From NCBI GenBank assembly GCA_964016885.1, contig OZ024741.1, positions 69,316,001-69,380,000 on the forward strand: a stretch of 64,000 nucleotides of DNA, written 5' to 3'. The notes under the pieces are model-generated. The model made no database searches, had not been told where the DNA came from, and worked only from the letters and a program-made list of their open reading frames with translations. Position numbers and translations under genes: made by a program. The number at the start of each line of letters is the position of its first letter. The first letter of the stretch is position 1. This document shows positions 21,034 to 56,266 of the stretch, piece after piece. Source of the stretch: Eledone cirrhosa (Eukaryota).

Positions 21034-21223
21034 AAAACGGAGTTGTAGTAAGAAACCAGATGGACCATAACGCACCAGAGTACTCAATACTTAGAGTAGT
21101 AGAGTGGGTAATAGGAGAAAGTATGACCCCGACAGCAGAGCTCAACCCGTTTCGACGGCTATTTCTGGACTGAAATAGCCGTCGAAACGGCTTGAGTTCT
21201 TCCGTCGGGGTCATACTTTCTCC

Positions 21224-21226
<3 letters not shown>
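21034..21226. mobile_element. Fold-back half-hammerhead element, copy 1 (arms 21111-21165 / 21172-21226)
   Basis: Inverted repeat; GAAA-CGGC..CCG-TC follows the central helix; (TA)n flanks. Confidence 0.88.
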
Positions 21227-21258
<32 letters not shown>

Positions 21259-21637
21259 ATGAAGAGAAAAACATATCAAGTGGTTATTTGTTTGCAAACA
21301 TCCACAAAAAATACTAATGATAAAAACCAAACTAAAAGTAAATTGAAATGTTAAAGAAAAAAAGATGGAAAACCATTGAAAATTCTATACTTTCCAGGCT
21401 CCCTTGGGTTTCTTTCATGGTTGGTGGAAATGTTGATGGATATATAGTGTGTTGGTTTCTATGTGAATGTATATGTCAGGAGAGATGGATGAGAATGTTG
21501 AAGGATATAAATATTACTCTAGGTGTAAATGAAAAATGTGTGTATGCATTTGTATATGCATATGTGCATAAGTATGAATATAACACACATACACACACAT
21601 GCAGGTGTGTGTAGCTCATTTAGGCTGATCCAGTAGC

Positions 21638-21689
21638 CTGATGATACTCTAGAGTTTCTCCAACATGTGGTTGGTTCATCAGGCAACAA
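21638..21689 (-). ncRNA. Hammerhead ribozyme motif (core intact, helix I degenerate)
   Basis: CTGATGA-A-CCAAC-CACAT-GTTGG-A-GAAA-CTCTAGAG-TA; palindromic helix III ACTCTAGAGT. Confidence 0.65.
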
Positions 21690-22045
21690 AATCTGGATAA
21701 GCTTGTGCCTACCTGCTATGGTATTGAGTACTTTATCTTTCATTTATTAAAAATAACACTCACACGCACACACATGTACAAACACACATATATATGCATA
21801 CAAAAAGTAAAAAGATAAACAGCACCACAAAATGATATAGTACAATGAAGATGTATGTTTGTTTAACACTTGATATAGTAGGAAAAGAGACTTAACGTTT
21901 CAGATATTAGTCCTTCATCAAATGATAAAATGAGAAATAAAAGAAATAGAAAGGTAGACGAGAGTGAGAAGATAAAGAAATTGGGAAAAAAGGTTTTTTG
22001 AAAAAAAACCACGTGTGTGTCCAACGTTCATATGTATGTATTATC

Positions 22046-22105
<60 letters not shown>

Positions 22106-22109
<4 letters not shown>

Positions 22110-22471
22110 GATAATAAAATATTGTTATAGGTAATCCAGTTAGAGGTTGTGAAAACTTATTATGGATAGTTTTAGTGTACAGCGTTGTATAACTAAACAA
22201 GAGGTTTACGTAGGTGGCGAGTTTATGAGTTCTCTTGCATTCCTATGTAAGTATATCTTGGAGTAATAATATTGAAAAAGTGAAGAATAACATGGTCAAC
22301 AGTACAAAAAAGGGGAATTTATAATAGTCTCTGATGTTCTGATTGAGCTAACATCGTATTTAAAATTGAGTCAGCAATTTTTAGACAACTTAATCAGAGA
22401 AACAATTGTTAGACTGTAAATAAATTCCCCTTTTTTGTTCTGTTGACCATGTTATTCTTTACTTTTTCAAT
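22106..22471. mobile_element. Fold-back element enclosing a hammerhead (22326-22415, +)
   Basis: Arms 22271-22321 / 22421-22471; AGTCT-CTGATGt-TCTGATTGAG..CTTAATCAGA-GAAA-CAATTG-TT-AGACT. Confidence 0.8.
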
Positions 22472-22535
22472 TATATATATATATATATATATACAATATA
22501 TTAATAAATGGAAACTATATTTATAAAACCATAAT

Positions 22536-22601
22536 TATTTTATTATATATATTTCAAGGGCAACCAAGGTAAATTATGGTGCGCTTTCATCAGATAAAAT
22601 A
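22536..22601 (-). ncRNA. Type I hammerhead ribozyme with complete core
   Basis: TATTTTAT-CTGATGA-AAGCGCACCA..TGGTTGCCCTT-GAAA-TATATA-TA-ATAAAATA; 8-bp helix I. Confidence 0.8.
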
Positions 22602-22728
22602 CAGATTTGTTTTATAAATAAATATTGACAAACCCGGAAAAAAGACAACCTCAACGGTTGAAATTCGCTTTATATCAGTTATAAACATTTTTAAGCTTGT
22701 TGAATCCCAACAAATTAAATATAACCTC

Positions 22729-22796
<68 letters not shown>

Positions 22797-23327
22797 TATA
22801 TGTGCATAGATTATTTTCCTATATCAAGCATTAACCCTTTAGCATTTACATTACTCTATATTTACTATTGTATTTTTACAGAAAAGGCTTCACAATTATC
22901 TCACATAATATTGAATCTACGAGATTTTGATATTATTTATTTTGATGACAATACCTTAACATTGATATGAATGAGTTGCCGGTTATGGCCAGTTTGAACA
23001 GAAAAAGGTGGGAGAACTCTGGCTGGGTATGGCCAGTTTAAATGCTAAAGGGTTAAACTCATATATGTCTTCATTGTACTGTATTGTTTGCATTGTTGTT
23101 TTCCATTTACCTTTCTCATATATATATGATCAAGGATAGTCACCCGAAGGGGATCAGGAAATAACTACAGTTAAATATAGTACTCAATGCATTAGTACAG
23201 AATAAGCATATTTATTTTATACAGGACTTAAACTGTTTCATTTGAATGAAATCATCCAAATGAAACAGTTCTAGTCCTTCAGAAGCCATTCCTATATAAT
23301 ATATATATATATAATATATATATATAT

Positions 23328-23624
23328 GGAGGCACATGGCTTAGTGGTTAGAGCATTGGCCTTGCAATCGAAAGGTTGTGAGTTCAATTCTCAGACCGGG
23401 TGATGTGTTGTTTCCTTGAGCAAGACACTTTATTTCACATTGCTCCAGTTTACTCAGCTGTAGAAATGAGGTTGTGGAGGTGCCATGGCAAAAAAGCACC
23501 CAGCACTCAATGTAAAAGGTTGGTGTTAGGAAGGGCATCCAGCTGTAGAAATCCCGCCAGAATCAGTTCCCGCCCACCCTTGCAAGCAGGGAAAAAGCGG
23601 ACGTAAAATGAAATGATGATGATG
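23328..23624 (+). mobile_element. CORE-type SINE
   Basis: As 9872-10217; inserted in (TA)n. Confidence 0.9.
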
Positions 23625-24107
23625 ATATATAGATATATATAATTGAAATCGTTTCTCTCACTATTTAACATATTATTGTGCACTCTGCTTTCCTTCATGG
23701 TTGGCATCTTAATGATGCTGGCTTAACACATTGAGTGAGTGGGAAAACAGTTGGAGATACATCACTTCTTCCAATAACTTCATTTCAATATTATTATTAA
23801 TGCACTGGGTAATTGCTGGCCTTGTGCCAAAAGTAGAAACAATTATTATTATAACTTCATTTCAATATTATTATTATTATATACATATATGTATATATAT
23901 TACACACACATCTGATAGATTAATTTTAATATTATATGAACCAATGAAACATTATAGGACTCAGTATGAGGAAGTATAATCTTAGCGACTTTCTGTGAAT
24001 ATAAGTTAGTATATATTTGAAATAAAAGTATGTCTATAAAGCATCTCTCTCTCTCTCTCTCTAATTATGTATACATATATATAATACACACAAACACAGG
24101 GACATAG

Positions 24108-24203
<96 letters not shown>

Positions 24204-24404
24204 AAATAGATAGATAGATAGACCATCATCATTTAGTGTGCGTGTATGTATAAAATATGTATGTATGTGTGTGTTTATATATAAATTGTAGCTGGTTATC
24301 CCTTGGGATTGTGGATTTGTCCACCAGATTTAGCACACACACACACACACACACACATATGTATATAGTGAGAGAGGGGGGGGGGGGGGGGCAGAGAGAG
24401 AGTT

Positions 24405-24625
24405 TGTATATACATAGAAGTAGCATATGATGTATAATATATGTAGAGCCTGAGTGCATGTGTGTATATACATAGAAGTAGCATATGATGTATAATATAT
24501 GTAGAGCCTGAGTGCATGTGTGTATATACATAGAAGTAGCATATGATGTATAATATATGTAGAGCCTGAGTGCATGTGTGTATATACATAGAAGTAGCAT
24601 ATGATGTATAATATATGTAGAGCCA
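24405..24625. repeat. 58-bp tandem repeat, ~3.8 units
   Basis: CATAGAAG at 24413, 24471, 24529, 24587. Confidence 0.95.
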
Positions 24626-25823
24626 CATGTGTGCATGTGTGTATATACATATACACACATGCACACATGTGGCTCTACAGGGATATTTGTAAAGATCTGA
24701 GTGGAGTGTTTCCTAATGTGATGGTGGCTGGTAATATGTTGGATGTGTCTGTGTATGTATATATGTGTGTGTACTGTGTGTGTGTATATATGTGTATGTA
24801 TTGTGTATGTGTGTGTGTGTATGTATATATGTGTATGTATGTGTGTGTGTGTATGTATATATGTGTATGTATGTATATGTGTATGTATTGTATATGTGTG
24901 TGTGTGTATGTATATATGTGTATGTATTGTGTGTGTGTATGTATAGTGTATGTGTGTGGTCATGCATATTTGAGTGTGTGTAAAAGATATGCTGGAATCT
25001 GAAGGGATCAAATAAGTAAAGAAGAAGATAATGAGAGGTTGGTGTTGTGGTAGAGGAGTGAGAAACAAGATGGATGCTATCTAAATGAAACCAGCTGTGG
25101 ATCATACAGAAATGAATCAGCATTCCTTTTATTCAGGTGAATTTATGTATATAGCTGTATGAGGAATGGGATGCTGGCCCTTAAGTGTGGTTAATGTGTT
25201 TGGCCTAATTCTGTTACATATTGATTTCTGATATATGCAAAAGGCTTCATTTTTTGGAGGAGAGAGAGAGAGTGGTAATTCATGTTTTTGATAGCAAACC
25301 ACCTGAAACTCTCTGGTTCTACCATATAAAACTGTTTATTTTGAAGCATTTACATTTCCTTCCTTCTTAGACACTCACTCTGCCTGTTACAGACTGCACA
25401 TCAACATGAGATATTCTTCTCCACAAAGTTTGATCACCAACAGCAGAGTTTAGCCCTTTAGCATTTAAATCAGCTGTATCCGGCCAGATGTCTCCCACCT
25501 CATCTTGTTCAAACTGGCTGTAACCGGCTGCTCATACTTATGTTAAGGAATTGTTCTCAAAATAAATATCAAAATCTTGTAAATTTGATGTTATGTGAGA
25601 TAAAGTATTTGCTGTGAAAATACAATAGTAATGTAAATGCTAAAGTGTTAAAGAGCAAAGGTCAAGTCTAGTCCAAGTCCATAAGTTGAAATTATCAAGC
25701 CAGTGATTTGACTGTTGACATTTGCTTCTCTTACCGGCTAACTTTCCTTCTAGGCATAACTTACACCACGAGTTGATCTTTTGTTATATTCACCTAAAAA
25801 CCTTTCATTATAATTTTATGATA

Positions 25824-26814
25824 TACTAGCAGTAAAGCCCGGCGTTGCTCGGGGTCGCTCAGAAGCTGTGTTAAAGTTACAATGTTAAGTTTCTTTCTTG
25901 GCTTAAAAACTGTAGTGTCTACTGTGCAGACTTGCATGTGGTGTTTTTGATTAATATTCCCTCAACCAACAATATGCCTTATGAAGTTAAGAAAACATAA
26001 CGATAACCCGAATGTTATAACAAAAGAGGATGCTGGGGATAAAAACTGCACTGGTTATTTATTAACAAAGATCGAAAATGTAAACACTGCAACGCAGAGA
26101 AAAACATTAGCGTAACCAAATTATCAGTTATGTCTGTCTGCACGCCTATATCACCTCTCTGCACGACTGTCTGTCTGCACGCCTATATCACCTCTCTGCA
26201 CGACTGTCTGTCTGCACGCCTATATCACCTCTCTGCACGACTGTCTGTCTGCACGCCTATATCACCTCTCTGCACGACTGTCTGTCTGCACGCGTATATC
26301 ACCTCTCTGCACGACTGTCTGTCTGCACGACTGTCTGTCTGCACGCCTAACGACGAAATATTTGCTTGTTTTACGTAGTCTTTAAATAGACTTGTTTTCA
26401 AGTAAAAATATTGTTTTAAAATGCTTTTAAATGGAAATGAAGCAAAACGGAAGCTTAGTGTTCGAACTGATGAATTTTGCAGGTCAATATTTTGCTGGCT
26501 CGACGACAACTGTTCGTGTATTGTGTTAATGTCATTTTAAACGCTGAGAAAGCCAGCGTAATTTTTTACGTAAGACGCTCAATGTAAACAGAACAAAGGG
26601 AAATAACTGATAACTTACGCTCAAAAATCGATACATTATATTCGATTTCGTCACATAGGGTGGGTCAATTTGAAATATTTTTTTCCCGATGTCTTCGCTA
26701 GGGCTCAATGTACAAGTATAGCAATTTCGGTGCAATTCCGTGAGAGATTCTAAGAGGAGATGTGTGCCAAAAATCGATAGACAGACAGACAACCACAGTT
26801 TTATATATATAGAT
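25824..26814 (+). mobile_element. Non-autonomous Helentron-type element with internal 37-bp minisatellite (26131-26348)
   Basis: TACTAGCAGTAAAGCCCGGCGTTGCTCGGG ... GACAGACAGAC..TTTTATATATATAGAT; internal tandem repeats are typical of such elements. Confidence 0.72.
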
Positions 26815-27717
26815 TATGTTCGAAACACCAACTAAACAACGAGAATGTCAATTATATTACTCATCATTTGATCGAGCAATTGCCCAGGCTAAAACCATGT
26901 GTCCCTTTGACAAGGCCTAGTCCCTGGAAGCCACCTTTGCCAAGGTTACGGCAAAGCCATGGGAAGTAGCATCGTGGATGTGTCATTCAACAGAGGAACT
27001 TTTAGAAGTCAATGGTGGGTGATAAACATGATGTTGAGTGGAAGAACTATAACAATACTCAACGATCAAGATCACTAAGTTCAGTTAGCGAAATTCTTCA
27101 TTAATTAATTAAAATGCAGTGTATGTCTATAAAAATATGCTCACGAAAGGGTTAAAGATGAGGGTAGAGAAATAGGTGCACTGCAATATATTTGTTGAAA
27201 TTTGGGTTAGAGTAGCAAGTATGTTCAGATGAATACATCCATCAGTAAGCTAGAGAATACAGCTGGGAGAGGAGAATTGCCTTTCATTAGCATATTTCTA
27301 ATGAATGATACTGCCTATGATTTTCAAATAATGTTGAAAATTATCAAGAATTTGGAGAAATTTTGTAATTTCATTGTTAAGCTAGTGTCTGGAACATAAC
27401 TTAAATTTACATTGAATTATGATAAACGTTTTTTTAAAATATATATGGACGCATTAAGATCTGTATAGAAAAAACAGACAGTTTCAGACAAGTTTTGAAA
27501 GGATTGACAGTAAAGGTAATCTTGGGTTAATGATGTTACCTGATAGGCCACCAGATGGCTATTACTCTGGATATTTCATGTTTCCTTTTATATTGATGAT
27601 TTTCCTGCATGTTTTACTCGATTCCATGTAAATCTCCACAGGTTTTGTATTTTATCCTTGTAATGTTCCTTTATCGGTTGCCCTTGCAGCAAATTATTAT
27701 TATTATTATTAAAACAT

Positions 27718-28830: not shown

Positions 28831-29129
28831 ATTTAATATTATTATTATCATTCAATATTGTATCTAATATTTCTATAATATCTGTTGTGATTTTTATTAT
28901 TTTAAAAAATTTTTTTTTTAATAAAAATAACTTAGATCAAAAATATGATTAGAAGAATACAAGAAAAAACTAATAGAAAGAATCAGTATAAAGTGACATC
29001 ATAAAAGTATTTGTCTGTTTCCTGTGAAGAAGAATGATTTCTTTCTTTCCTCTCTATCAATTTTTCTTTATTTCCAACCACTTTTGTCAGAAAACATTAC
29101 ATATATATTTCTTCTGACTATTTTCTTTT

Positions 29130-29180
<51 letters not shown>

Positions 29181-29512: not shown

Positions 29513-29563
<51 letters not shown>

Positions 29564-30925: not shown

Positions 30926-31225
30926 TACTATCGCTTGCCTGGTTGCCTTTCGATATATGATGGATGGATGGACTGCGGAATCCTGGAGAGTGGAGGAGAG
31001 AGAGAGAGAAAAATCTGGATGCTCAGCGACAATGCCAAAGATAAAGACAAATTCACCGCTTGGACGAGAATGCGAGCACTCCTCATTGTTTCGACCGCGG
31101 ACGGCTAACATAACCCCATCGGCCCCCGCCCCCACCGCCCCCAACCCCCAAACGCAATCCAAAACTTCAGAGTTGGTACCATAAATGTAGGCACCCTAAA
31201 GGGTCGCGCTAACGAGGTTGTAGAA

Positions 31226-34201
31226 ATGCTTGAGCGTAAGGAGGTCGATGTTTGTTGTATTCAAGAGACCAGGTGGAGGGGTGGGTCTGCTAGGTTCATT
31301 GAGGGTAAAAAACGATGTTATAAGCTTTTCTGGGTGGGAAACGACGATGGGCTGGGTGGAGTAGGAATCATGGTAGCAGAAAAGTGGGCAGATAAGATAA
31401 TAGACGTAAATAGAGTGAACGACAGAATAATTAAAATACGACTTGTCCTCAATAGAACTACGGTGACAGTAATATCTGCGTACGCACCCCAATCCGGACT
31501 GCCCGGCACTATAAAAGACAGATTCTATGAGACACTGATGCTAACTACCTCCCAAATATCCGACAGTGACTATATAATTATCGCAGGCGACCTAAATGGT
31601 CACGTTGGACAACATTGTGACGGCTACGACGAAATCCATGGAGGCTATGGGTTTGGTACTAGAAATGAGGAAGGCTCCAGAATCCTGGAATTCTGTGATG
31701 CAAATAACCTAACTATCTGTAACACTAACTTCAAAAAACGTGACAATCACCTGATCACCTATAGATCCGGGGAACACACAAGCCAGGTAGATTATATCCT
31801 TACCAGAAGACGTGACAGAGTGTCTGTTGTAAACACTAAATCCCTCCCCCATGAAGAATGCACCTCCCAACATAGACTGATAATTAGCGACCTCATAGTC
31901 AGGACGAGACGTACTCGACAGCAGAAGAGGACTATCCTCAGGAGAAAAATATGGAAGCTAAAGGACCCCACAGCCAGGAATAAATTTCAAAGCATATTAC
32001 TTGATGCTTTCGACAGTAAGGAAGAACATTTAGAGTCGGACGATATAGAGGGAGAGTGGGAATTTCTGAAAGCAAACCTGCTGTTGGCGACAGACGAAGT
32101 CTGTGGCTGGGGCAGGCCTGTAGGCAGGAGGAGAGTAACATGGTGGTGGAACAGTAAGGTGGAGGGGTCAATTAAGGCCAAAAAGCAGGCTTGGAAAGTA
32201 TGGCGGGATGGGGGAAGTAGAGAAGACTATCAAGTGGCCAGGAGGGAAGCTAGGAGACAAGTGTACTTAGCAAGAAGGGAAGCTGAGGAAAGAAAGTTCA
32301 AGCATGTTCTACAACGCGATGACCAAAAACGTGAGGTGTTCAGGATTGCTAGGCAATGCGTCAAGGAAAACCGTGATATTGTCGGGGAGAAGTGTGTACT
32401 AAACGACGATGGCACACTTGCCATCACCGACGCTGATAAGAAGGTAGCTTGGAAGTGTCACTATGAAAGGCTACTAAATGAGGAGAATAAATGGGAGAAA
32501 GACAGTCTCCCCCATATCGACCCAATAGAGGGACCAGCAGTGTTAGTCGAGGGGAGTATAATAAGTAAGGCAATCAAGGATATGAAGACGGGTAAGGCGG
32601 CTGGGCCTTCGGAAATAGTTGCTGAGATGCTGAAGGCATCTGGCACGGTGGGACACACCATGGTCACCCGCATAGTTAACCAAGTCGTACAGAATGGGGT
32701 TGTTCCGAAGGACTGGCATAGCAGCATCATCGTTAACTGTTATAAGGGTAAAGGAGACGCCCTAGATAGGAGTAACTATAGAGGCATTAAATTAATTGAC
32801 CAGGTCATGAAGGTCACGGAAAAAGTAATAGCGCAACTAATCAGAGAGAGAATTGACCTAGATGAAATGCAGTTCGGGTTTGTGTCAGGCAAAAGTACCA
32901 CAGACGCTCTTTTCATAGTACGACAACTACAGGAGAAGTACCTAGCTAAAGGTAAACCCCTCTACTTAGCTTTTGTCGACTTGGAGAAAGCCTTCGACAG
33001 AGTCCCCCGCTCCATTATCTGGTGGGCTCTTAGAAAACTAGGCATTGACGAATGGCTTGTGAGGGCTATACAAGCCATGTATAAAGAAACAGTCAGCAAG
33101 GTTAGAATTAACAACGAATATAGTGAAGAGTTTAGCGTAAAAGTTGGCGTCCATCAGGGCTCTGTTCTCAGCCCCCTACTATTTATTATTGCCCTTCAGG
33201 CTATAACAGAGGAGTTCAAGACAGGCTGCCCATGGGAACTCCTATACGCAGACGACCTGACACTCATAGCGGAATCAATGGCCGAGCTAGAGAAGAAATT
33301 CCAAACATGGAAGCACGGCCTAGAGTCAAAAGGACTTAAAATTAACCTGGCTAAGACCAAAGTACTAGTTTGTAGGAAAGAAAACAAGGCGGCGGTCCCT
33401 TCTGGGAAATGGTCGTGCTCGGTGTGTAGGAAAGGCGTAGGTAGAAACTCCATTTTATGTCCTAAATGCAAAGTATGGGTGCATAAAAGATGTAGTGGGA
33501 TCACAGGTAAGCTAACTAAGAACATAGATTTTACATGTGGCCGGTGTTCTGGTGCAATAAGTAGCAGCAAGTGCCCACAAAATACTAGCTCTTTCAATTG
33601 CGCAGAGGGTTCTATAGAAATAGTGGACAGCTTCCGTTACCTGGGCGATAAAATCAGCAGTGGGGGAGGGTGCTCTGAAAGTACTGTAGCTAGAGTCAGA
33701 ACTGGTTGGAAAAAGTTCAGAGAGCTTATACCACTATTAGCTGCTAAAGGGTTCTCCCTAAAAATGAAAGGCAGGTTGTACGATGCCTGCATACGAACAG
33801 CAATGCTGCATGGCAGTGAGACCTGGGCATTGTGTGCAGAGGATATACGCAGACTAGAGAGGAACGAAGCTTGCATGCTCCGCTGGATGTGTAACAGTAA
33901 TATACGTGAACGGCAAAGCATAAACGAACTAAGGAAAAAATTAGAGATAAGAGGGATCAGATGTTGTTTACTCGAGAGAAGGCTACGTTGGTATGGACAC
34001 GTGATGCTCATGAAAGTCGATAGCTGTATAACAAAGTGCAGGGCAATAAAGATAGACGGTAGTCACGGAATAGGCAGACCTAGAAAAACCTGGGACGAGC
34101 TGATAAACTCCGACATCACACACTTACACCTCTCCAAGACAATGTCACTGGACCGAGACCTTTGGCGGTACTCAGTAACAGAGAAGACCCGCCTTACCTA
34201 A
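31226..34201 (+). CDS. RTE ORF: APE endonuclease + reverse transcriptase with inserted PHD-type zinc finger
   Basis: CIQETRW, ISAYAPQ, GDLNGHVG, VDYIL, QHRLI; DLEKAFDRV, QGSVLSPLLF, YADD; C4HC3 insert; LRWYGHV, GRPRKTW. EN homology (FRVGTINVGTL) starts in frame at ~31166, upstream of this ATG. Confidence 0.97.
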   Translation: MLERKEVDVCCIQETRWRGGSARFIEGKKRCYKLFWVGNDDGLGGVGIMVAEKWADKIIDVNRVNDRIIKIRLVLNRTTVTVISAYAPQSGLPGTIKDRFYETLMLTTSQISDSDYIIIAGDLNGHVGQHCDGYDEIHGGYGFGTRNEEGSRILEFCDANNLTICNTNFKKRDNHLITYRSGEHTSQVDYILTRRRDRVSVVNTKSLPHEECTSQHRLIISDLIVRTRRTRQQKRTILRRKIWKLKDPTARNKFQSILLDAFDSKEEHLESDDIEGEWEFLKANLLLATDEVCGWGRPVGRRRVTWWWNSKVEGSIKAKKQAWKVWRDGGSREDYQVARREARRQVYLARREAEERKFKHVLQRDDQKREVFRIARQCVKENRDIVGEKCVLNDDGTLAITDADKKVAWKCHYERLLNEENKWEKDSLPHIDPIEGPAVLVEGSIISKAIKDMKTGKAAGPSEIVAEMLKASGTVGHTMVTRIVNQVVQNGVVPKDWHSSIIVNCYKGKGDALDRSNYRGIKLIDQVMKVTEKVIAQLIRERIDLDEMQFGFVSGKSTTDALFIVRQLQEKYLAKGKPLYLAFVDLEKAFDRVPRSIIWWALRKLGIDEWLVRAIQAMYKETVSKVRINNEYSEEFSVKVGVHQGSVLSPLLFIIALQAITEEFKTGCPWELLYADDLTLIAESMAELEKKFQTWKHGLESKGLKINLAKTKVLVCRKENKAAVPSGKWSCSVCRKGVGRNSILCPKCKVWVHKRCSGITGKLTKNIDFTCGRCSGAISSSKCPQNTSSFNCAEGSIEIVDSFRYLGDKISSGGGCSESTVARVRTGWKKFRELIPLLAAKGFSLKMKGRLYDACIRTAMLHGSETWALCAEDIRRLERNEACMLRWMCNSNIRERQSINELRKKLEIRGIRCCLLERRLRWYGHVMLMKVDSCITKCRAIKIDGSHGIGRPRKTWDELINSDITHLHLSKTMSLDRDLWRYSVTEKTRLT

Positions 34202-36899: not shown

Positions 36900-37061
36900 A
36901 ACGAAGGTACTCAATACTTAGGGTAGTAGAGTGGGTAATAGGAAAAAGTATGACCCCGACGGCAGAGCTCAAGCCGTTTCGACGGCTATTTCAATGGCTA
37001 TTTCTAGAAATAGCCGTCGAAACGGCTTGAGCTCTGCCGTCGGGGTCATACTTTTTCCTAT
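36900..37061. mobile_element. Fold-back half-hammerhead element, copy 2
   Basis: Perfect arms 36938-36992 / 37007-37061; internally deleted tail. Confidence 0.88.
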
Positions 37062-37074: not shown

Positions 37075-38926
37075 TCATCATCATCATCATCAACGTTTAA
37101 CGTCCGTGTTCCACGCTTGCATGGGTTTGGACGGGGGTAGTCCCACTTGAGGCAAGAGTGATTGTCTTGCTCGCATAGGACTGTCTGGCAGGTTTTCTAC
37201 AGTTGGATGCCCTTCCTAACACCAACCACATTTACAGTGTGGGTCTGGGAGGTTTTTACCGTGTTGCCTACACGGCCACATTACAGCGTGGACTGTGTTT
37301 TTTTGTCGTGACACCTACACGATCTCATTTGTTTTGGCCTGGATGGCGCGGCACCAACATAACTTTACATAGAACGGGGTGGTGTGGATGGGGTGGGGGT
37401 GGTGGTGGTGGGACGGGGTGTATTTTGTTAGAGATGCCTACTGGCTGGAGTAGGTTTTACTATATATTTAGGTAAGGCGGGTCTTCTCTGTTACTGAGTA
37501 CCGCCAAAGGTCTCGGTCCAGTGACATTGTCTTGGAGAGGTGTAAGTGTGTGATGTCGGAGTTTATCAGCTCGTCCCAGGTTTTTCTAGGTCTGCCTATT
37601 CCGTGACTACCGTCTATCTTTATTGCCCTGCACTTTGTTATACAGCTATCGACTTTCATGCGCATCACGTGTCCATACCAACGTAGCCTTCTCTCGAGTA
37701 AACATCTGATCCCTCTTATCTCTAATTTTTTCCTTAGTTCGTTTATGCTTTGCCGTTCACGTATATTACTGTTACACATCCAGCGGAGCATGCAAGCTTC
37801 GTTCCTCTCTAGTCTGCGTATATCCTCTGCACACAATGCCCAGGTCTCACTGCCATGCAGCATTGCTGTTCGTATGCAGGCATCGTACAACCTGCCTTTC
37901 ATTTTTAGGGAGAACCCTTTAGCAGCTAATAGTGGTATAAGCTCTGAACTTTTTCCAACCAGTTCTGACTCTAGCTACAATACTTTCAGAGCACCCTCCC
38001 CCACTGCTGATTTTATCGCCCAGGTAACGGAAGCTGTCCACTATTTCTATAGAACCCTCTGCGCAATTGAAAGAGCTAGTATTTGGTGGGCACTTGCTGC
38101 TACTTATTGCACCAGAACACCGGCCACATGTAAAATCTATGTTCTTAGTTAGCTTACCTGTGATCCCACTACATCTTTTATGCACCCATACTTTGCATTT
38201 AGGACATAAAATGGAGTTTCTACCTACGCCTTTCCTACACACCGAGCACGACCATTTCCCAGAAGGGATTGCCGCCTTGTTTTCTTTCCTACAAACTAGA
38301 ACTTTGGTCTTAGCCAGGTTAATTTTAAGTCCTTTTGACTCTAGGCCGTGCTTCCATGTTTGGAATTTCTTCTCTAGCTCGGCCATTGATTCCGCTATGA
38401 GTGTCAGGTCGTCTGCGTATAGGAGTTCCCATGGGCAGCCTGTCTTGAACTCCTCTGTTATAGCCTGAAGGGCAATAATAAATAGTAGGGGGCTGAGAAC
38501 AGAGCCCTGATGGACGCCAACTTTTACGCTAAACTCTTCACTATATTCGTTGTTAATTCTAACCTTGCTGACTGTTTCTTTATACATGGCTTGTATAGCC
38601 CTCACAAGCCATTCGTCAACGCCTAGTTTTCTAAGAGCCCACCAGATAATGGAGCGGGGGACTCTGTCGAAGGCTTTCTCCAAGTCGACAAAAGCTAAGT
38701 AGAGGGGTTTACCTTTAGCTAGGTACTTCTCCTGTAGTTGTCGTACTATGAAAAGAGCGTCTGTGGTACTTTTGCCTGACACAAACCCGAACTGCATTTC
38801 ATCTAGGTCAATTCTCTCTCTGATTAGTTGCGCTATTACTTTTTCCGTGACCTTCATGACCTGGTCGATTAATTTAATGCCTCTATAGTTACTCCTATCT
38901 AGGGCGTCTCCTTTACCCTTATAACA
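37075..38926 (-). mobile_element. RTE LINE, 5'-truncated copy (RT half + 3' UTR)
   Basis: ORFs 37919..38857 and 37468..37902 (one frameshift) are near-identical to the full-length copy. Confidence 0.97.
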
Positions 38927-39088
38927 TATCTATATATATATATAATAGAAATAGGATTTAGCTTCAAGCATAGCTGTATACAAATATGTATAGAAATTTC
39001 GTATTTCTAAAGAAACATGGAAGCCGTAACTATGGAAACACTGGGGCTAACGCCCTCTGGTGGTGTCCAGCAGAAGCAAGGAGGACAA

Positions 39089-47460: not shown

Positions 47461-47651
47461 TATATATATATATATATATTGTATATATATATATATTATA
47501 TATATATTATATATACATATATTATATATATTATATATTATATATATTATTTATATATTATATATACATATATTATATATATTTATATATTATATATATT
47601 ATTTATATATTATATATATATTATATATATATTATATATATATATATTATT

Positions 47652-47684
<33 letters not shown>

Positions 47685-48212
47685 ATATATATTATATATA
47701 TCTTATATATATATATTATATATATTATATATATTATATATATATATTATATATATTATATATATATATTATATATATTATATATATATATTATATATAT
47801 TATATATATATATTATATATATTATATATATATTATATATATTATATATATATATTATATATTATATATATATATATTATATATTATATATATATATATT
47901 ATATATTATATATATATTATATATATATTATATATTATATATATATTATATATATTATATATATATTATATATATATATTATATATATATATATTATATA
48001 TTATATATATATTATATATATATTATATATATATTATATATTATATAATATATATTATATTATATATATATATTATATATATTATATTATATTATATATA
48101 TTATATTATATTATATATATTATATATATATTATATATATATATATTATATTATATTATATATATTATATATATATTATATATATATATATTATATATAT
48201 ATTATATATATA
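47461..48212. repeat. ~750-bp almost pure A/T (TA)n/(TTATATA)n tract
   Basis: Direct reading. Confidence 0.97.
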
Positions 48213-49875
48213 TTCATATTTATTAATTTTTTCTTCTTTTTTATATTTTTAAGGTAAGTTTTATGACTTTGAATCCTGACCCCAATGGCCTCAGTGACCT
48301 CAGCAACATTGTGAATTTGTATGTAACCTTTTATTATCATCATACAGTCCATCTTATATAAAGTTAACTTAGCACACATTTCAATGTCATTCTCAGTAAC
48401 CCCCTCCCAAATGTCATATTGTACCATGAGTTTCAAGTATCTTGCTCTTAGTATTAAAAATTCATTCAGGGTAGTGAGTTGGCAATGCATCGGATAAAAT
48501 GTTTAGTGTGTTGGGCTTATCATTGTAATGTCATGGGTTGTTTTGTGTTCTTGAGCAAAACATTTCATGTGCTCCAATAAACTCAGCTGAAGATGAGTAT
48601 TAGCCGTAGCTGCTGTGATTGTCGCAGTAATGCTACTACTTAAAATAAAATTTTGCCAGAGATAGATTAGTCAAATTTAATAAGTGGGGGTGGGGTGGGG
48701 CTTGGAATATGAGCAGGGTTGGTATTTGGGGTGGTTGTGTGGAAAATCTGAATAATTAATAAGTGGTGGGGGACGATTATTTGAGACCCAAGAATATATA
48801 TGATATATATGGTAATTAACTTTATCACACAGAATCTACTCTAGCCTTGCTTGTTATCAATATGACTTACATATATAGCAATAACTAGTTGTTAAGATCA
48901 TGGATTATGAACATGATTTATAACTAGATTAGTGGTGATGCTTGTTACATCATTTTAACATCCTACCAATGACTGCTGGTTCTTAGTTATCAGTTAAGCA
49001 TGATGTAGTTATGATGCAAACATTTTATAATTTATTACAGTAAAAATACATAATTTACTGTGAAATTCTAGAAGTGATATTAAACATTTATTTGACACAA
49101 AATGTCATATAAAGATTTATTATAGATATTATTGAAATATGTTCCTTCACTAGATAAATTATCTTTCTCTCTAGCAAAGTCCATGATTAATTAATTTTGC
49201 TGATTAACTAAACACTTGCTTTTGTCCTGTCTAAATGTTTTCCTGTTTTCTTTCTTTTCTTACTCTCATCTCTCTTCCTATTTCTTATTCCCTCTCACAA
49301 ATATCCCCTTCTGTCTCTCATTCTATCTTCTGATGAAGTACTGATGTCCAAAGCGTTAGGACTATTTTCCTACTATATCAAGCACTGAACTAATATATAT
49401 CATCATTGTATTGTTCTGTGTTGAATTTTCCTATATATATATATAATTGTTTTTACTTTTGGTACAAGGCCAGCAATTATCCCAATGCATTACTGGTACT
49501 TTATTTTATCGACCCTGTAAGGATGAAAGGCAAAGCTAACTTTGGTGGGATTTGTACTCAAACCGTAAAGGGCCGTAACTTTATGCTGCAAAGCATGGCA
49601 TCCCACCCTCTACTGATACTGTCAATCCATCTTGCCTGCTTTTATCCCAATGTTAACCTACCCATTCCGTAAACAAGGATCAATAAAAATAAGCACCAAA
49701 GTACTAGGGTTGATATAATTGACTGAAGCCCTTGAAGGACATGCTCCAGTGTGGCCACACCCAAAGGTGGAGCCACACTGAAAAACATATAAGGAAGCTC
49801 TATTTGTAAAACTTCTCTAGGGAGAAATAAATTTGAAAATGTGTCAATAGATGGTAGGAGGATCATTTGCATGTA

Positions 49876-49913
<38 letters not shown>

Positions 49914-49916
<3 letters not shown>

Positions 49917-50920
49917 TAGCAGAAGTGCTCGGGGCTGAATTGCTTGAAAGTACTGTTAATGATTGCACTGAATTATGATTATTCAGGCAAAGATTGATAT
50001 AAGTTTACGCCGAATGAATCTATTTGTAAGTGTATAGAAAGGCCTGTAAAGGGGTTCCTACCCCCTTGTAGAATGGTGTAAGAATTGACTGTGAGGTTGC
50101 CTTGAAAAGGGCCATGTTATTGTTCTCATAATTGTAAGAATTTGATAGTCGTGGAAGGGGGTGTAAAACGTTCGCAGGTGAATAGGGCCTCTTCGTTTTC
50201 CACGAATGGCAGCGGATGTGCTGTTACAAAACTTCATGGTGTGTTAAAAGAGAATTGATGCCCTATGTAGGCAAGAGGGGAATTAAGTATGGGTAAGTAA
50301 ATACGGGTAATTTATAAAATCTAGAACAATAACATCTACTCACCATATATCAGACCGGCAAGACTGTAGTGGTGCTGAATAGATGAATCACAACACGTCT
50401 GTGGTGGAGATGTTGTTTTCATTGATTGGCGAATTTGTTTACGTACATGTTGAAAATGGCAAATGTTTGTGCAGTTGTCAGAAATATAACCAGGGTACAT
50501 TTGTGGAAGTGATGTATTATAATGAATAGTCGTGTATTTGTGGTTATAAATCCTGCACGTTGTTTAATTGCTTAACATTTTTTTTAATCAATTTATGTGA
50601 GTGTGTTTGTATGCGTTTGGAAATAAATCAGTAAGTTTGAAGTATAAAAGAGAAAGTAGTAAAATGTGTGGGTTGTATATAGAGGTTACCAGATGATATG
50701 AGAGAGTAAAACGGACAGTATCACCATCAAGCTTGGAAAGAGAAAGTAGCAGAAAGTATGAAGTTGTATAGATTTTGAATGGTAATAGAAAGAGGGAAGC
50801 ACTTGAAATGAGAGAGAAAATCGTAAAATATTGAGTTTTATCGATTTTTTGGGGCGTAATTTTGGGTGAAATTGAAAAATTATATGTGCCAAGACCCAAT
50901 TGAAGCTATTTCGAATACTG
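49914..50920 (+). mobile_element. Helentron-type element interrupted by the bipartite RTE element
   Basis: TACTAGCAG start; 50710-50915 is similar to the reverse complement of 54630-54845. Confidence 0.6.
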
Positions 50921-51280
50921 AAGGAAAACTCTGATATAACATCTGCAACTCTGATGGTATCCAATGATGTTGACTTGTTCTTCTTTTTGGTAAATATCAT
51001 CTTGGTTAAGAGAGTAGGACTGTCTTTGTGCAGTGCCTTTGCTCACTATAAAAGCTTCACGGCACAGGCATTGCTTTATATCTGGAGATCTCTCTGCACT
51101 TGTCGTCACATGGTTCCATGGACCCAGCACTATGCGTCAATAATTGTCACAAGTGTAGTGTTTGTACCAGAGTTTTCAAGTCGCTGGCTGGACTAAAATG
51201 TCACTCGTTCAGCGCATCGGTAGGAGTTCTCCTACATGTATATAAAGTAGTGGCCGTACTCGAAAACGAGTTGGCAGCCA

Positions 51281-51317
<37 letters not shown>

Positions 51318-51357
51318 TGTATATATATATACATATATGTATGTATGTGTGTGCGTG

Positions 51358-51400
<43 letters not shown>

Positions 51401-51609
51401 ATTGTTGTTGTCGTTATTATTATTGTTGTTATTATTATTATTATTGTTATTAATGTGTGTGTTGGTGTGTGTGTATATGTATATATATATATATATTTCT
51501 TTTTTATTTATTAATTTTTTTTTTTTTTTCTCCTCGTGCAATGGCCATACTCGATAACGAGGGGGCAGCCATCATCATCATATATGTATATATATATATA
51601 TATATATAT

Positions 51610-53380
51610 TTATTAAAATAATAGATTAAAGTTTAAGCAAAGAATCGCTGCTTTCACCCTTAACGGGATCTTCTGAAACTAACAAAGTCAATCTGTAAAC
51701 GCAGAAGTGGATATTTCAAAAAACGTTGCAACCGGAGGAAGACAGGAAGACGATACTTTGGTTCGTGGAAACATTCGCTGGCAAAGAACGGGAAAAAACA
51801 AATATAATACGTCATTAATAGGAGCTGTGAAAAACAATTACGAGCAAAGACAGAACCACGTTTATGGTATAAAAGAGGTCGTAGACTAATGTTCTCTTAG
51901 GTGGTTCATAGAGACGTTCTCTGTCAATGAACGAAAAAAACGAAGATAATACGTCATATGTGGAGCGTGGAGAACAATAGCACGCCAAGACAAAACCACG
52001 TAAATGGTATAGCAGAAGTCGTAGACTAAAATTCTAACTAGGAGACCGAATGAATCTCCGCTACAGAGGTAAGAACAAAGTAAATAAATACAATACGGAT
52101 GTAATAGAAATAAATAAATATATACACGCAAACAAATACGTACATACACAAGTATACGCAAAACACTTACCATAGGTATACAAAACCACGCACATATAAA
52201 TATGTGCGTGTGTGTATGCGTGTATACAAATAAATAATTATATAAACGTATATAAATAAATAAATACATATATAACAAGCGCACACACATACTTACATGT
52301 AAATACACGAATGTTCGGAGACGTAAGTCAACCAAAACATGGAGTACACATATACACACTCTACATACGTACGAACCAGCATATTCACACAGACGCGAAA
52401 CTCCCCCATACACAAAGCCAAACCATATGTACCAGAATATATAAAAATTATACGCCATAACATAAACAATCAAATATACATACGAGAAGGTATACGTACC
52501 TTCACAAAACCTACGGGTAATATATACTTACCTATGCAAATAAGTAATGGTATAAACAAAACATATACTTAGCTCCCACATCAAGACGTAAAATATCCAC
52601 GTATAGATCGTACTATCCGTTTGGGTATAACGTGGGGATGTAATACAGGAAAGTTTTCTGCAATTTATGTTTACAAGCCGAAATTGCCTCAGATTTTTTG
52701 TTTAAGATGTGGTCTGTGGCGTAGAGTATTTCCAGGGCCTCAGTGGCGCAGAGCTCACATGGTCTTTTATTTCCATTATACGATCTAGCCCAAGCTAGGA
52801 TCTCCCAGTGTAACTTATATTGGGTGTGGTTGTCTTTTAGACTCCAGATATAAGCTGAAAGTGACGTCATATTCCTTTTTAGAGGGTAACGAAAAGAATG
52901 GGTTTGCATGTAAAGACGCTGCTTGATTCTATTGGCGGTTAACCCTATGTAGGCCCTACGGGACGTGGGTGTAACAACCTTACATTTGTAGACAATGTTA
53001 CTAGAGAGTCATTTCCCGGATAGGGGGCAATCAACCCGATTCCTACAATTACAGTTAGTACTAACTACTGGGTTGCACGTGTTCCTACGGCTAGGTAGTT
53101 TAGCTAAATTTGAAGCTGTGATGTTATGTGCAAGGTTAGGAGTCGTAGAGTAAGAAATTTTAATAGTATTTCTATTAGCTAATGGTGTGGCCACCTCCAT
53201 ATTATATGGTGGGTTATACCAACAAATGCGACGGGATCTATTTCTTCTAGGTTTATTTTCGTACTCTGTATATGCTACCTTATCGAGAAATCCACTTCGA
53301 GCAAGAGCTTCATTGTAATAAGTGGAATGGTTGTTGAAAATACGCTCGTTGGTGGAAAGACGGGAAAGCCTCAACGAAAC
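51610..53380 (-). mobile_element. Penelope-like element 3' fragment (RT C-terminus, Cys linker, C-terminal GIY-YIG, long 3' UTR)
   Basis: [33 protein letters not shown][TGA]LSSNIVYKC..AYIGLT..KQRLY..TSLSAYIW..CELCATEALEI..LNKKSE..CKH; clade assignment tentative. Confidence 0.88.
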
Positions 53381-53425
53381 ATATGTATATATATATATAT
53401 ACATATATGTATGTATGTATGTATG

Positions 53426-53456
<31 letters not shown>

Positions 53457-53487
53457 GTATATATATATATACATATATGTATGTATG

Positions 53488-53526
<39 letters not shown>

Positions 53527-54283
53527 GTATGTATGTATGTATGTATGTATGTATGTATGTATGTATATATATATATAACGTATCCCAGTACAACCTGTCA
53601 CATGGTTGGGTCGTTGGCGACTAAACTGGCAACCCCACCAAGGTTTCTTGGTGAGGAGGGTGACTTTGGACATCCTGCAGGACTAAAAACAAAACCTGTC
53701 AAAGGGCAAAGGAGCTCTTAAAAGTCAATGGCCATCCAAAATCACCGGGAGAGATGACCCCTTAGCCTTTGTCAAGGCAGAATTCTAGGAGAAGGAAAAC
53801 TCTGATATAACACCTGCAACCCTGATGGTATCCAATGATGTTGACTTGTTCTTCTTTTTGGTAAATATCATCTTGGTTAAGAGAGTAGGACTGGCTTTGT
53901 GCAGTGCCTTTGCTCACTATAAAAGCTTCACGGCACAGGCATTGCTTTATATCTGGAGATCTCTCTGCATTTGTCGTCACATGGATTCCATGGGCCCAGC
54001 ACTATGTGTCAATAATTGTCACAAGTGTAGTGTTTGTACCAGAGTTTTCAAGTCGCTGGCTGGACTAAAAAGTCACACTCGTTCAGCGCATCGGTAGGGG
54101 TTCTCCTACATGGATATAAAGTAGTGGCCGTACTCGAAAACGAGCTGGCAGCCACCATATATATATATATATACATATATGTATGTATATATATATATAT
54201 ATATATACATATATGTATGTATGTGTATATATATATATATATATACATATATGTATGTATGTACATATATGTATGTATGTATA

Positions 54284-54339
<56 letters not shown>

Positions 54340-54453
54340 TGTATGTATGTATATATATGTACATCTATATATATATATATATACATATATGTATGTATGT
54401 ATATATATGTATATATATATATGTATGTATATATATATATACACATATGTATG

Positions 54454-54495
<42 letters not shown>

Positions 54496-54552
54496 TGTAT
54501 GTATGTATATGTATGTATGTATATATATATATATATATGTATGTATATCATA

Positions 54553-55352
54553 ATCTATAAAGCTCAGTGTGTGGTCATGCTCCTTTGTTATAGAAATCTA
54601 CGATATATAATTTCTTCAATTGAAATTTACAATTCAGTACTCGAAATAGCTTCGATTGCATCTTGACGCAGATAATTTTTTCAATTTCACCCACAATTAC
54701 GCAAAAAATAGATAAAACTCAGTATTTTACGATTTTTCTCTCTCATTTAAACTGCTGAACTCTTTCTACTACCATTCAAAATTTATACAACTTCATACTT
54801 TCTGCTACTTTCTCTTTCCAAGCTTGATGGTGATACTGTCCGTTCACACCACTCCCTATTGTCTTAAATTTAGAAAACACATATCCTCTATGAGGTTACT
54901 AAACCTGCTAGAAACAGCAGCTAACTCTCCCCCATATCACACCCCTCCCCACTGTCTTAAATTTAGAAAACATATCTTCTATGAGGTCACTAAACCTGCT
55001 AGAAAGAGCAGCTAACTCTCCCCCATATCACACCACTCCCTACTGTCTTAAATTTAGAAAACACACAGACAACCATGCAGAACAACTCCATTGCAGCTGT
55101 GTTGTTCGGCTGGCATCGTCTGCGCGCGTGTTGCGCAAGTACTGTGAAACAATAAATTTCAACACTTTTTTGCACAGAGATAATATCCATAGGCGAAACT
55201 ACAATTGTCACTGCTGGCACAGCTCATGCTTCCAGGTCTGCAATTCATTCACCCAGTGCCTGGCAGACAAAAAAGTGCTGCCATAAAATGGGTGGTGCAA
55301 CCTAACTTTGGTAACTTAATCACCCGAGCAACGCCGGGCTTTAATGCTAGTA
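54553..55352 (-). mobile_element. Non-autonomous Helentron-type element
   Basis: Minus strand TACTAGCATTAAAGCCCGGCGTTGCTCGGG ... CTTTATAGAT. Confidence 0.7.
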
Positions 55353-55633
55353 TATATATATATATACATATATGTATGTATATATATATATATACATATA
55401 TGTATGTATGTCTATATATATATATACATATATGTATGTATATATATATATATATGTATATATATACATATATGTATGTATATATATTGTTATACTTTGG
55501 GAGGGACATGTTGCCAATAAGAAACACACGCACCAGTTGCTTTCACTTCAATTTATTATATATTTATAAATTTACAAATCTATAAATTTCTGGTTGGTTG
55601 GTTGGTTCCACAACCAGATAGTTGTTTATATAT

Positions 55634-55678
55634 AGTCATAGTCCTTTCGTCACACACTCTGTGACCTCTTCAGTGACT
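55634..55678 (-). ncRNA. Minimal type I hammerhead ribozyme (inverted-arm copy)
   Basis: Reverse complement of 55804-55848. Confidence 0.85.
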
Positions 55679-55803
55679 GGGGATTCCTTTCTTTGTTTCT
55701 GTGCCTTTCCTTTCTTCTGTCTTACGCCATTTTGTTTCTGTGTGAAACAAAATGGCGTAGGACAGAAGAAAGGAAAGGCACAGAAACAAAGAAAGGAATC
55801 CCC

Positions 55804-55848
55804 AGTCACTGAAGAGGTCACAGAGTGTGTGACGAAAGGACTATGACT
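55804..55848 (+). ncRNA. Minimal type I hammerhead ribozyme, complete core
   Basis: AGTCA-CTGAAGA-G-GTCACA-GAGTG-TGTGAC-GAAA-GGAC-TA-TGACT. Confidence 0.87.
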
Positions 55849-56068
55849 ATATATAAACAACTATCTGGTTGTGGAACCAACCAACCAACGAGAAATTTAT
55901 AGATTTGTAAATTTATAAATATATAATAAATTGAAGTGAAAGCAACTGGTGCGTGTGTTTCTTATTGGCAACATGACCCTCCCAAAGTATAACAATATCG
56001 GTTTCAACACACGATTTCAGATAAAGAATCTTGCTAAACAAATTCAGAAACGAAATATGTATATATAT

Positions 56069-56264
56069 ATAGGAACCAGTAAGACCCCGATGGCTGAGCT
56101 CAAGCCGTTTCGACGGCTAATTCTGGACGTCCAGAATTAGCCGTCGAAACGGCTTGAGCTCAGCCGTCGGGGTCTTACTGGTTCCTATTACCCACTCTAC
56201 TACCCCAAGTATTGAGTACTTTGGTGTGTTATGGTCCACCTGGTTCCTTACCACATTTCCTTCG

Positions 56265-56266
<2 letters not shown>
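56069..56266. mobile_element. Fold-back half-hammerhead element, copy 3
   Basis: 120-bp loopless palindrome 56069-56188 plus 78-nt tail. Confidence 0.88.

What the first reader, a model, noticed from the sequence alone, without database searches (positions are those of the whole stretch)
21034..56266. Half-hammerhead palindromes folded exactly on helix II (three independent copies)
Seen: copies at 21111-21226, 36938-37061 and 56069-56188 read, on both strands, central helix - GAAA - C-GGC-(TTGAGCTCT/A)-GCC-G - TC - GGGGTC. That is hammerhead helix II, GAAA, a 5-bp helix III and a canonical GUC triplet, but the CUGANGA strand is replaced by the reverse complement of this 3' half. The three centres differ (6-nt loop, 14-nt loop, loopless). 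Copy-specific sequence is mirrored in both arms (AAAGTATGACCCC vs CCAGTAAGACCCC), and all short arms stop at CCTAT. Inference: the palindrome is regenerated at each insertion. Either the cDNA snaps back on helix II and self-primes the second strand, or two cDNAs primed from opposite sides of the break anneal through helix II. The ribozyme helix would then double as a priming or joining device.
Basis: partly seen in the sequence, partly recalled or inferred. Interest (0 to 1): 0.85.

Follow-up and report, generated by a model that had tools for sequence, protein, structure and literature searches.

The report
Head-to-head Penelope stubs, promoter-split ribozyme
These palindromes are real and very abundant stubs of a Penelope-type jumping gene, each likely made by copying the front end of its RNA twice, from both sides of a DNA break, and joining the two copies head to head; they carry only half a hammerhead ribozyme most likely because transcription starts in the middle of it, not because the ribozyme helix primes the copying.

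Summary
The three palindromes are real. Each is a ~200-bp stub of a 3,531-bp Hydra-type Penelope-like element (PLE; RT plus GIY-YIG) inserted in (TA)n. There are 16,890 exact-anchor palindromes genome-wide and roughly 9x10^4 copies in all. The parent carries the complete type I hammerhead, mostly with a U3-A8 core, not CUGANGA. Two separate cDNAs fit; snap-back does not. Either arm can be the longer one by kilobases, and some palindromes join two different PLE families. Helix II as priming device is not supported: its loop is rarely kept, long arms run through it (0 of 16 stop), and two other families fold 70-95 nt upstream of their ribozymes. The arms stop at initiator-like purines, often with an untemplated cap-like G, so the centre is most likely the capped RNA start, which lies at the helix II apex. 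The inverted-copy-plus-tail layout is published; the scan noted half-hammerhead stubs and twin priming earlier elsewhere in this genome.

The parts
21035..21171 (-). Copy 1, tailed arm: parent positions about +1 to +141 (+1 = A of TTT|AGTCC, the inferred RNA start)
21172..21226 (+). Copy 1, tail-less arm: parent +7 to +61 (GAAA at 21184-21187, GTC at 21204-21206), followed by (AT)n
36900..37005 (-). Copy 2, tailed arm with an internal deletion in the tail and a 12-nt duplication next to the centre
37006..37061 (+). Copy 2, tail-less arm: parent about +6 to +61, followed by (AT)n
56069..56128 (-). Copy 3, tail-less arm: parent +2 to +61, preceded by (TA)n at the end of a family B stub
56129..56188 (+). 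Copy 3, tailed arm, first part: helix II 3' strand, GAAA, helix III, GUC site (+41), stem I 3' strand, to CCTAT (+61, inferred second RT start)
56189..56268 (+). Copy 3, one-sided 80-nt tail (+62 to +141, inferred first RT start), followed by a long (TA)n
8641..8723 (+). Fourth copy, tail only, between (TA)n runs

Best explanation
The palindromes are short insertions of a 3,531-bp Hydra-type Penelope-like retroelement, each likely built from two separate cDNAs that the element's reverse transcriptase would prime from both sides of a break in (TA)n, start at two fixed sites (+141 and +61) and run to the likely capped 5' end of the RNA, where they would be end-joined head to head. Shown: the parent, its complete hammerhead-shaped motif, the two fixed ends, the variable joints, arm asymmetry in both directions and cross-family palindromes. 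Inferred: twin priming (from published PLE biochemistry), a transcription start at +1/-4/-5 (from initiator-like context and untemplated G), and end-joining by microhomology. Because that start lies at the apex of helix II, the RNA's front end holds only the ribozyme's 3' half and cannot cut itself; that is why the stubs look folded on helix II. Long and tandem copies would come from another template class (circular or multimeric RNA).
For: Parent: tandem arrays of a 3,531-bp unit with an RT + GIY-YIG ORF bearing Hydra-clade motifs; young stubs carry the young parent's variants. Hammerhead: MFE fold of the young parent is a three-way junction; 5,060 arms carry the full core, and 77 of the first 100 listed are U3-A8, 23 C3-A8 mismatched, 0 C3-G8 (hand count). 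Fixed ends: 62 of 64 stubs have exactly one tailed arm. Remade each time: 54 distinct centres in 62 stubs. Two cDNAs: tail-less arm longer in 7 and tailed arm longer in 8 of 15 long two-armed insertions, up to 16 kb versus 0.3 kb; four palindromes join a family A arm to an arm of another PLE family (L031, L056, L065, L073). RNA start: none of 24 copies in 784 kb of unselected DNA reaches past -4; both arms flanking C-[A/T]-G in 32 of the first 50 of 294 loci at +1 and 8 of 9 loci at -5; G before AATTT where the template has T in 10 of 21 loci of one subfamily (hand count). Family B folds 12-18 nt upstream of a YY1-like motif (label recalled) and ~70 nt upstream of its hammerhead core; family E arms end at an initiator-like TCAGTT/CCAGTT ~95 nt upstream of its core. 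Literature: the Anolis PLE protein cuts and extends both strands, starts at two internal sites that define the tail, and inserts with a dead ribozyme (PMC11167929); Penelope has an internal promoter (PMC2377424).
Against: No RNA data: no RNA run was listed, so the start site and cap are inferred from DNA alone. The inferred start and the helix II apex coincide within a few bases, so this family alone cannot separate them. The C-A-G centre can also be read as one cap-derived C plus a templated copy of AG(A); outside that class the excess of C is small (8 C, 7 T, 4 G, 17 templated A in 36 arm readings). 70 of 100 arms run on into the templated T run (-1 to -4). The patterns select on arm length. 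Both arms nearly always share a subfamily (24 of 24 long inverted pairs), which snap-back also predicts. 0 of 16 long arms end at an upstream +1, so a second template class has to be assumed. One of the first 50 loci does look joined through the helix II apex. That reverse transcriptases copy the cap as an extra C is recalled knowledge; searches gave no passage that I read.
Confidence: 0.75

Rival explanations
1. One reading: the cDNA snaps back on helix II and primes its own second strand, or two cDNAs anneal through helix II, so the ribozyme helix doubles as a priming or joining device.
For: The centres cluster at the helix II apex. Arms nearly always share a subfamily. Small fold-back copies occur at some joints. 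One locus of 50 (C1:440805066) is joined through the apical complementarity. Self-priming was proposed for PLE palindromes in PMC3846280 (Discussion passage).
Against: A snap-back arm cannot hold sequence that its template arm lacks, yet either arm can be longer by kilobases. Cross-family palindromes exist. The helix II loop and 5' strand are absent from all 62 centres (a set partly selected on centre length) and from all 24 unselected copies. Long arms cross the apex freely (0 of 16 stop). Families B and E fold far from their hammerheads.
Confidence: 0.07
2. Two cDNAs, as in the best explanation, but the RNA 5' end at the apex is made by a nuclease cutting the helix II loop (hairpin processing), not by transcription initiation.
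For: The limit of the arms (-4/-5) is also the 3' edge of the predicted apical loop. Most arms run into -1 to -4 without an extra G.
Against: An untemplated C/G appears after three different end points (+1, -4, -5), all purines after a pyrimidine. Other families show fixed 5' ends at promoter-like motifs outside any hammerhead helix.
Confidence: 0.1
3. The stubs are a self-propagating palindromic element (MITE- or SINE-like) copied whole from palindromic masters; centres are reshaped later by hairpin instability and arms are evened out by gene conversion.
For: The 30 best genome matches to copy 3 share its loopless centre, and diagnostic changes are mirrored in both arms.
Against: Those 30 were picked for likeness to that centre and span several subfamilies. 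In unselected order the centres differ within one subfamily and recur across subfamilies. The stub haplotypes that I compared have long, ORF-linked counterparts. The predicted hairpin behind the +141 start is missing from stubs.
Confidence: 0.05

Closest known systems
Insertions of endonuclease-bearing PLEs with an inverted 5'-truncated copy and a one-sided tail (Craig et al. 2021, PMC8557442; Arkhipova et al. 2013, PMC3846280)
   Same: Head-to-head inverted copy, tail on one end only, tandem arrays, hammerhead in the pLTR, (TA)n targets.
   Different: The tail is 80 nt, not 30-40. The stubs are minimal (~200 bp), outnumber long copies roughly tenfold or more, and share one sharp 5' limit. The data favour two cDNAs over the self-priming proposed in PMC3846280.
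Hydra clade of PLEs (PMC8557442, section 11)
   Same: C-terminal GIY-YIG-like domain, DKT, CxCx5C linker, CxxC and CxH motifs, RWR at the RWK place, (TA)n insertion.
   Different: Unit is 3.5 kb (described as generally under 3 kb); hammerhead core is mostly U3-A8. No tree was built.
Anolis Poseidon PAc in vitro (Frangieh et al. 2024, PMC11167929)
   Same: Both target strands cut and extended; two internal RT start sites define the tail; ribozyme cleavage not needed.
   Different: Another clade; starts there are 30-40 nt apart and inside the ORF. The parts that I read do not derive the inverted layout or a fixed 5' limit from these results.
PLE hammerheads, including the U3-A8 variant of Cercyon and pairs on opposite strands 100-700 bp apart (Cervera and de la Pena 2014, PMC4209133)
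   Same: Type I topology, short helix I, long helix II with a bulge at its base, palindromic loop III, U3-A8 covariation.
   Different: Helix II is much longer here (~57-59 nt from 10.1 to 11.1), helix III has 5 bp, and the stubs hold only the 3' half.
LINE-1 twin priming (passages in PMC11702581)
   Same: Two cDNAs primed from the two ends of the break and joined by end-joining with microhomology.
   Different: In L1 the second primer anneals at variable internal sites and the arms cover different RNA parts; here both starts are fixed and both arms cover the same 60 nt.

Membership tests
Hydra-clade PLE (parent) | Single ORF with RT and C-terminal GIY-YIG endonuclease | tested here: met
   716-aa frame with RT motifs (FDIESYY, YRDD) and a C-terminal VIY...YIG read from the translation; Pfam gave no family at E <= 0.1; 2,214 unnamed relatives at E <= 1e-30 among 8,000 scored
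Hydra-clade PLE (parent) | DKT, RWK, CxCx5C linker, CxxC and CxH motifs | tested here: met
   HSDKTGN, RLRWRT (R for K), CNCPDRSIC, CNLC, CKH against the text
Hydra-clade PLE (parent) | Insertion into (TA)n | tested here: met
   30 of 30 loci; most of 64 stubs
Hydra-clade PLE (parent) | Length generally under 3 kb | tested here: not met
   Unit 3,531 bp; a tendency in the paper, not a strict rule
Hydra-clade PLE (parent) | Placement in the Hydra clade on an RT tree; CCHH motif absent | not tested
   No named reference PLE sequences were held
EN+ PLE insertion layout | Inverted 5'-truncated copy with a tail at one end only | tested here: met
   62 of 64 stubs; long copies likewise
Type I hammerhead (parent) | Three helices around C3/U3-UGA-N-G8/A8-A and GAAA, with NUH | tested here: met
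   MFE three-way junction for the young parent, though z = -0.59 and three older copies fold otherwise; position 3-8 is C-G in 4, U-A in 4, mismatched in 2 of 10 hand-picked rows
Type I hammerhead (parent) | Self-cleavage at GUC (+41) | not testable with these tools
   No RNA run listed; 0 of 50 unselected tailed arms begin at +39 to +45
Type I hammerhead (stubs in the window) | Complete catalytic core in cis | tested here: not met
   Stubs begin at -4 or later; the core lies about 40 nt further upstream
Animal non-LTR retrozyme | Tandem units each with a complete hammerhead, no ORF | tested here: not met
   Stubs are single head-to-head pairs with half motifs; the tandem form carries an ORF (definition)
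MITE / non-autonomous DNA transposon | Fixed structure with terminal inverted repeats inherited from a master copy | tested here: not met
   One-sided tail, variable centres, RT-encoding parent

The most novel reading that the evidence does not exclude
This PLE places its transcription start inside its own ribozyme, so that one sequence acts in two ways: the capped front copy is a half-hammerhead that cannot cut, the rear copy is whole. Capped linear RNA then yields only twin-primed ~200-bp palindromes (two 'strong-stop' cDNAs joined cap end to cap end), while cleaved and circularised RNA yields the long and tandem copies. The head-to-head layout of all endonuclease-bearing PLEs would be explained by one dimeric enzyme starting at two hairpins on one RNA, and stub centres would map PLE start sites genome-wide from DNA alone.
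Probability: 0.35. Interest if true: 0.68.

Novelty: new variant of a known kind. Interest (0 to 1): 0.42.

Why it matters
How Penelope-like elements, the closest mobile relatives of telomerase, make their head-to-head insertions is still open: self-priming on an antisense template was proposed in 2013, and the 2024 biochemistry left the later steps unvalidated. This family offers tens of thousands of natural products with a young, intact parent. Arm asymmetry in both directions, cross-family joins and cap-like bases at the joint make twin priming on a capped sense RNA directly testable. The family also shows a hammerhead core passing between C3-G8, C3-A8 and U3-A8 in a lineage that kept amplifying. 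The layout itself is ordinary, and the 'ribozyme helix as primer' idea that made the finding look new does not hold.

Tried and rejected
1. My first reading, that the palindrome is inherited from a master copy, was an artefact of ranking by likeness and was dropped. 2. Search for the core within 33 nt of GAAA (64 matches) and for ACCCCCTGANGA with a short helix II (2 matches): no parent; the parent's helix II is longer and its core is mostly U3-A8. The few C3-G8 copies found were picked by the pattern and may be single-copy mutations. 3. Rfam at gathering threshold: only one tRNA match. 4. Pfam: nothing for the parent protein; homologue search gave no clade names. 5. No RNA holder listed; no evidence either way. 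Contigs of run X4 show a depth step at +1 and at the tail end, but the run may be the assembly's own sample and contig depth is no copy number; X5 and X6 hold only a few pieces. 6. A second breakpoint at the ribozyme cut site: 0 of 50 arms (82 of 132 arms were set aside as lying in stretches chosen by a search). 7. Repeated strand transfer on a linear RNA as the source of long copies: it predicts long arms ending at an upstream +1, seen in 0 of 16. 8. Eleven further long inverted pairs listed were not mapped, so the arm-asymmetry count rests on 28 stretches. 9. Paper searches (PLE with palindrome/non-autonomous/octopus; PLE with two cDNA/template switching/dimer; octopus with Penelope and hairpin) returned no listing that describes this family or a cap signature at PLE inversion joints; the library lacks most subscription papers, and I read no supplements (files S1 and S2 of PMC8557442 may list related mollusc families).
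Full report
Observation. The three palindromes are in the sequence as described: 52, 58 and 59 paired positions, each between (TA)n runs, each with an ~80-nt unique extension on one side only. The arm's likeness to a hammerhead 3' half is more than chance: 1.7% of 5,000 dinucleotide shuffles give GAAA, a 5-bp stem and UH. The same layout (palindrome or long inverted repeat, one-sided tail, TA flanks) is seen in the window for an RT-encoding PLE at 57668-60712 and for two other short families.

Abundance. A DNA search with copy 3 gave 2,453 first-look candidates, 40 scored. A pattern with exact 11-mers on both arms counts 16,890 palindromes. In 784 kb of DNA not chosen for the element (window, 200 kb beside it, 52 spaced stretches) there are 24 copies or fragments, about 9x10^4 genome-wide if scaled; this is rough.

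The parent. Allowing 34-64 nt between core and GAAA gave 135 matches, among them copies with a whole hammerhead, a 1.2-kb upstream region and a PLE reading frame. A protein search led to near-identical tandem arrays of a 3,531-bp unit. Its protein has the motifs that Craig et al. list for the Hydra clade; no tree was built. In the arrays the tail runs straight into the next unit's leader, so the tail end is an internal site, not an RNA end. I number from +1 = the A of TTT|AGTCC. GAAA is +19 to +22, the cut site +41, the short arm ends at +61 and the tail at +141 (BLAST extends this to +144 through a chance TA match).

The ribozyme. The young parent folds as a hammerhead three-way junction, though no more stably than shuffles (z = -0.59), and three older copies fold otherwise. 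5,060 arms carry the full core; of the first 100 listed, 77 have U3-A8, 23 C3-A8 and none C3-G8 (counted by hand). Distant relatives in the genome have the canonical CTGATGA or CTGACGA (L075, L089, L090). U3-A8 is a described PLE variant (PMC4209133, parts 1-2 of 4 read). Activity was not testable.

Is the palindrome remade each time? Yes. My first reading was the opposite, because the 30 best matches to copy 3 share its centre, but they were chosen for that. Among 62 stubs (69 rows, less 3 duplicates and 4 of old subfamilies; most taken in genome order) there are 54 distinct centres; one subfamily shows many centres and one centre recurs in several subfamilies. Arms of one copy differ by 2.5 letters in 48 on average, arms of different copies by 6.2 (65 elements).

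One cDNA or two? A snap-back arm cannot hold sequence that its template arm lacks. Of 28 stretches mapped on the unit, 15 held a two-armed insertion with clearly unequal arms: the tail-less arm is longer in 7 (up to 16 kb against 0.3 kb) and the tailed arm in 8. In stubs the split is 24 to 27, with 11 equal (the script's end points are loose by a few bases). Four palindromes join a tailed arm of this family head to head to an arm of another PLE family (L031, L056, L065, L073); they were found by a pattern that favours them and are rare. One stub has arms from two subfamilies at three diagnostic sites (L278), and one has two tails and two haplotypes (L294). Against: 24 of 24 long inverted pairs share their core variant, and 62 of 64 stubs have exactly one tail. 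So both cDNAs usually come from one RNA or one source. This fits the Anolis PLE, which cuts and extends both strands, starts at two internal sites that define the tail, is predicted to be a dimer, and inserts with a dead ribozyme (PMC11167929, parts 1-2 of 4 read). Short hairpins fold just behind +61 and +141, as earlier scan notes had suggested for this clade.

Why the centre sits on helix II. None of 24 unselected copies reaches past -4. Of 50 tailed arms not picked by a search, 19 begin at -5 to +9, none at -11 to -6, one between -60 and -12, 13 run past -60, and none begins at the cut site. Helix II is no intrinsic stop: 16 long arms cross an upstream +1 and none ends there. The stop positions are purines after pyrimidines in initiator-like context (TTAGTC, TCATTT, and TCAGT in one subfamily; consensus recalled). 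An untemplated base follows them. Where both arms reach +1 with three bases between, 32 of the first 50 of 294 loci read C-[A/T]-G, one reads CGG, and 72 of 100 arm readings begin with C. Where both reach -5, 8 of 9 loci read C-[A/T]-G. In one subfamily 10 of 21 loci have G before AATTT where the template has T. That is what copying a cap would leave (recalled knowledge; searches gave no passage that I read). Caveats: C-A-G may be one cap base plus a templated AG(A); outside that class the excess of C is small; 70 of 100 arms run on into the templated T run; and these patterns select on arm length. Two other families separate start from helix: family B folds ~70 nt upstream of its hammerhead core, just before a YY1-like motif (window copy, L043, L054, L303, and single arms in L130 and L231), and family E arms end at TCAGTT or CCAGTT ~95 nt upstream of its core. 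Penelope itself has an internal promoter (PMC2377424, passages), and an initiator-like motif was noted in rotifer pLTRs (PMC3846280, passages).

Mechanism. Shown: parent, fixed ends, variable joints, two-way asymmetry, cross-family joins. Inferred: a capped RNA begins at the helix II apex and so carries only the ribozyme's 3' half; the element's enzyme cuts both strands of (TA)n and starts two cDNAs at +141 and +61; both run to the cap; their ends are trimmed by 0-8 nt and joined with about 1 nt of overlap or a short insertion. Long and tandem copies need a template without that end, such as the circular RNA proposed in PMC4209133; this step is assumed, not shown.

Comparison and verdict. The inverted copy with a one-sided tail is the published signature of endonuclease-bearing PLEs (PMC8557442, passages and section 11; PMC3846280, passages). 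The stubs are not retrozymes as defined in bioRxiv 10.64898/2026.07.22.740005 (part 1 of 5 read). The process resembles L1 twin priming (PMC11702581, passages) but with two fixed starts. The scan had already noted half-hammerhead stubs, twin priming and start hairpins elsewhere in this genome; a look-up by sequence showed nothing. What remains is a known kind of insertion with unusually clear evidence on how it is made. Interest 0.42.

Noticed in passing
window 55484-56052: Family B stub: 515-bp palindrome with a complete hammerhead (CTGAAGA...GAAA) on each arm and a one-sided tail; its centre lies just upstream of AAAATGGCG. Copy 3 sits in the (TA)n at its end.
   Followed up: partly
window 57668-60712: Another PLE: 447-nt inverted repeats with a CTGACGA hammerhead, a 619-codon RT/GIY-YIG frame (58271-60130) and a ~55-nt one-sided tail.
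   Followed up: partly
window 16000-16199: Family C stub: 136-bp palindrome plus 64-nt tail in (TA)n, with a GAAA-bearing arm and a degenerate core-like centre; only one other copy in the DNA held.
   Followed up: partly
L031, L056, L065, L073 (about position 1500 of each): Head-to-head joins between this family and another PLE family (E); L043 and L036 join it to family B-type hammerhead sequence.
   Followed up: partly
L227-L228 (G000:C1:91.47-91.49 Mb): A four-unit array of the parent ends in at least 15 tandem copies of a 55-bp piece of the ORF (unit positions 1755-1812), suggesting repeated slippage by the RT or later expansion.
   Followed up: no
L133-L162, L168, L259: A mid-age subfamily with a mismatched C3-A8 hammerhead core amplified widely (23 of 100 listed cores), between canonical C3-G8 relatives and the young U3-A8 form; the order of events was not tested.
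   Followed up: partly
window 31109-34201, 859-3495, 37468-38929: Near-identical copies of a LINE with AP endonuclease, RT and a PHD finger (Pfam); one frame of 1,030 codons is open.
   Followed up: no
window 11226-13001: Tandem array of a 123-bp unit, about 98% identical.
   Followed up: no
window 10150-10208: tRNA-like match (Rfam), probably the head of a SINE; a similar sequence lies near 56730-56790.
   Followed up: no
L061, L249 and listed loci: Some joints hold long untemplated A/T runs facing each other, as if one or both cDNA ends were tailed before joining.
   Followed up: no
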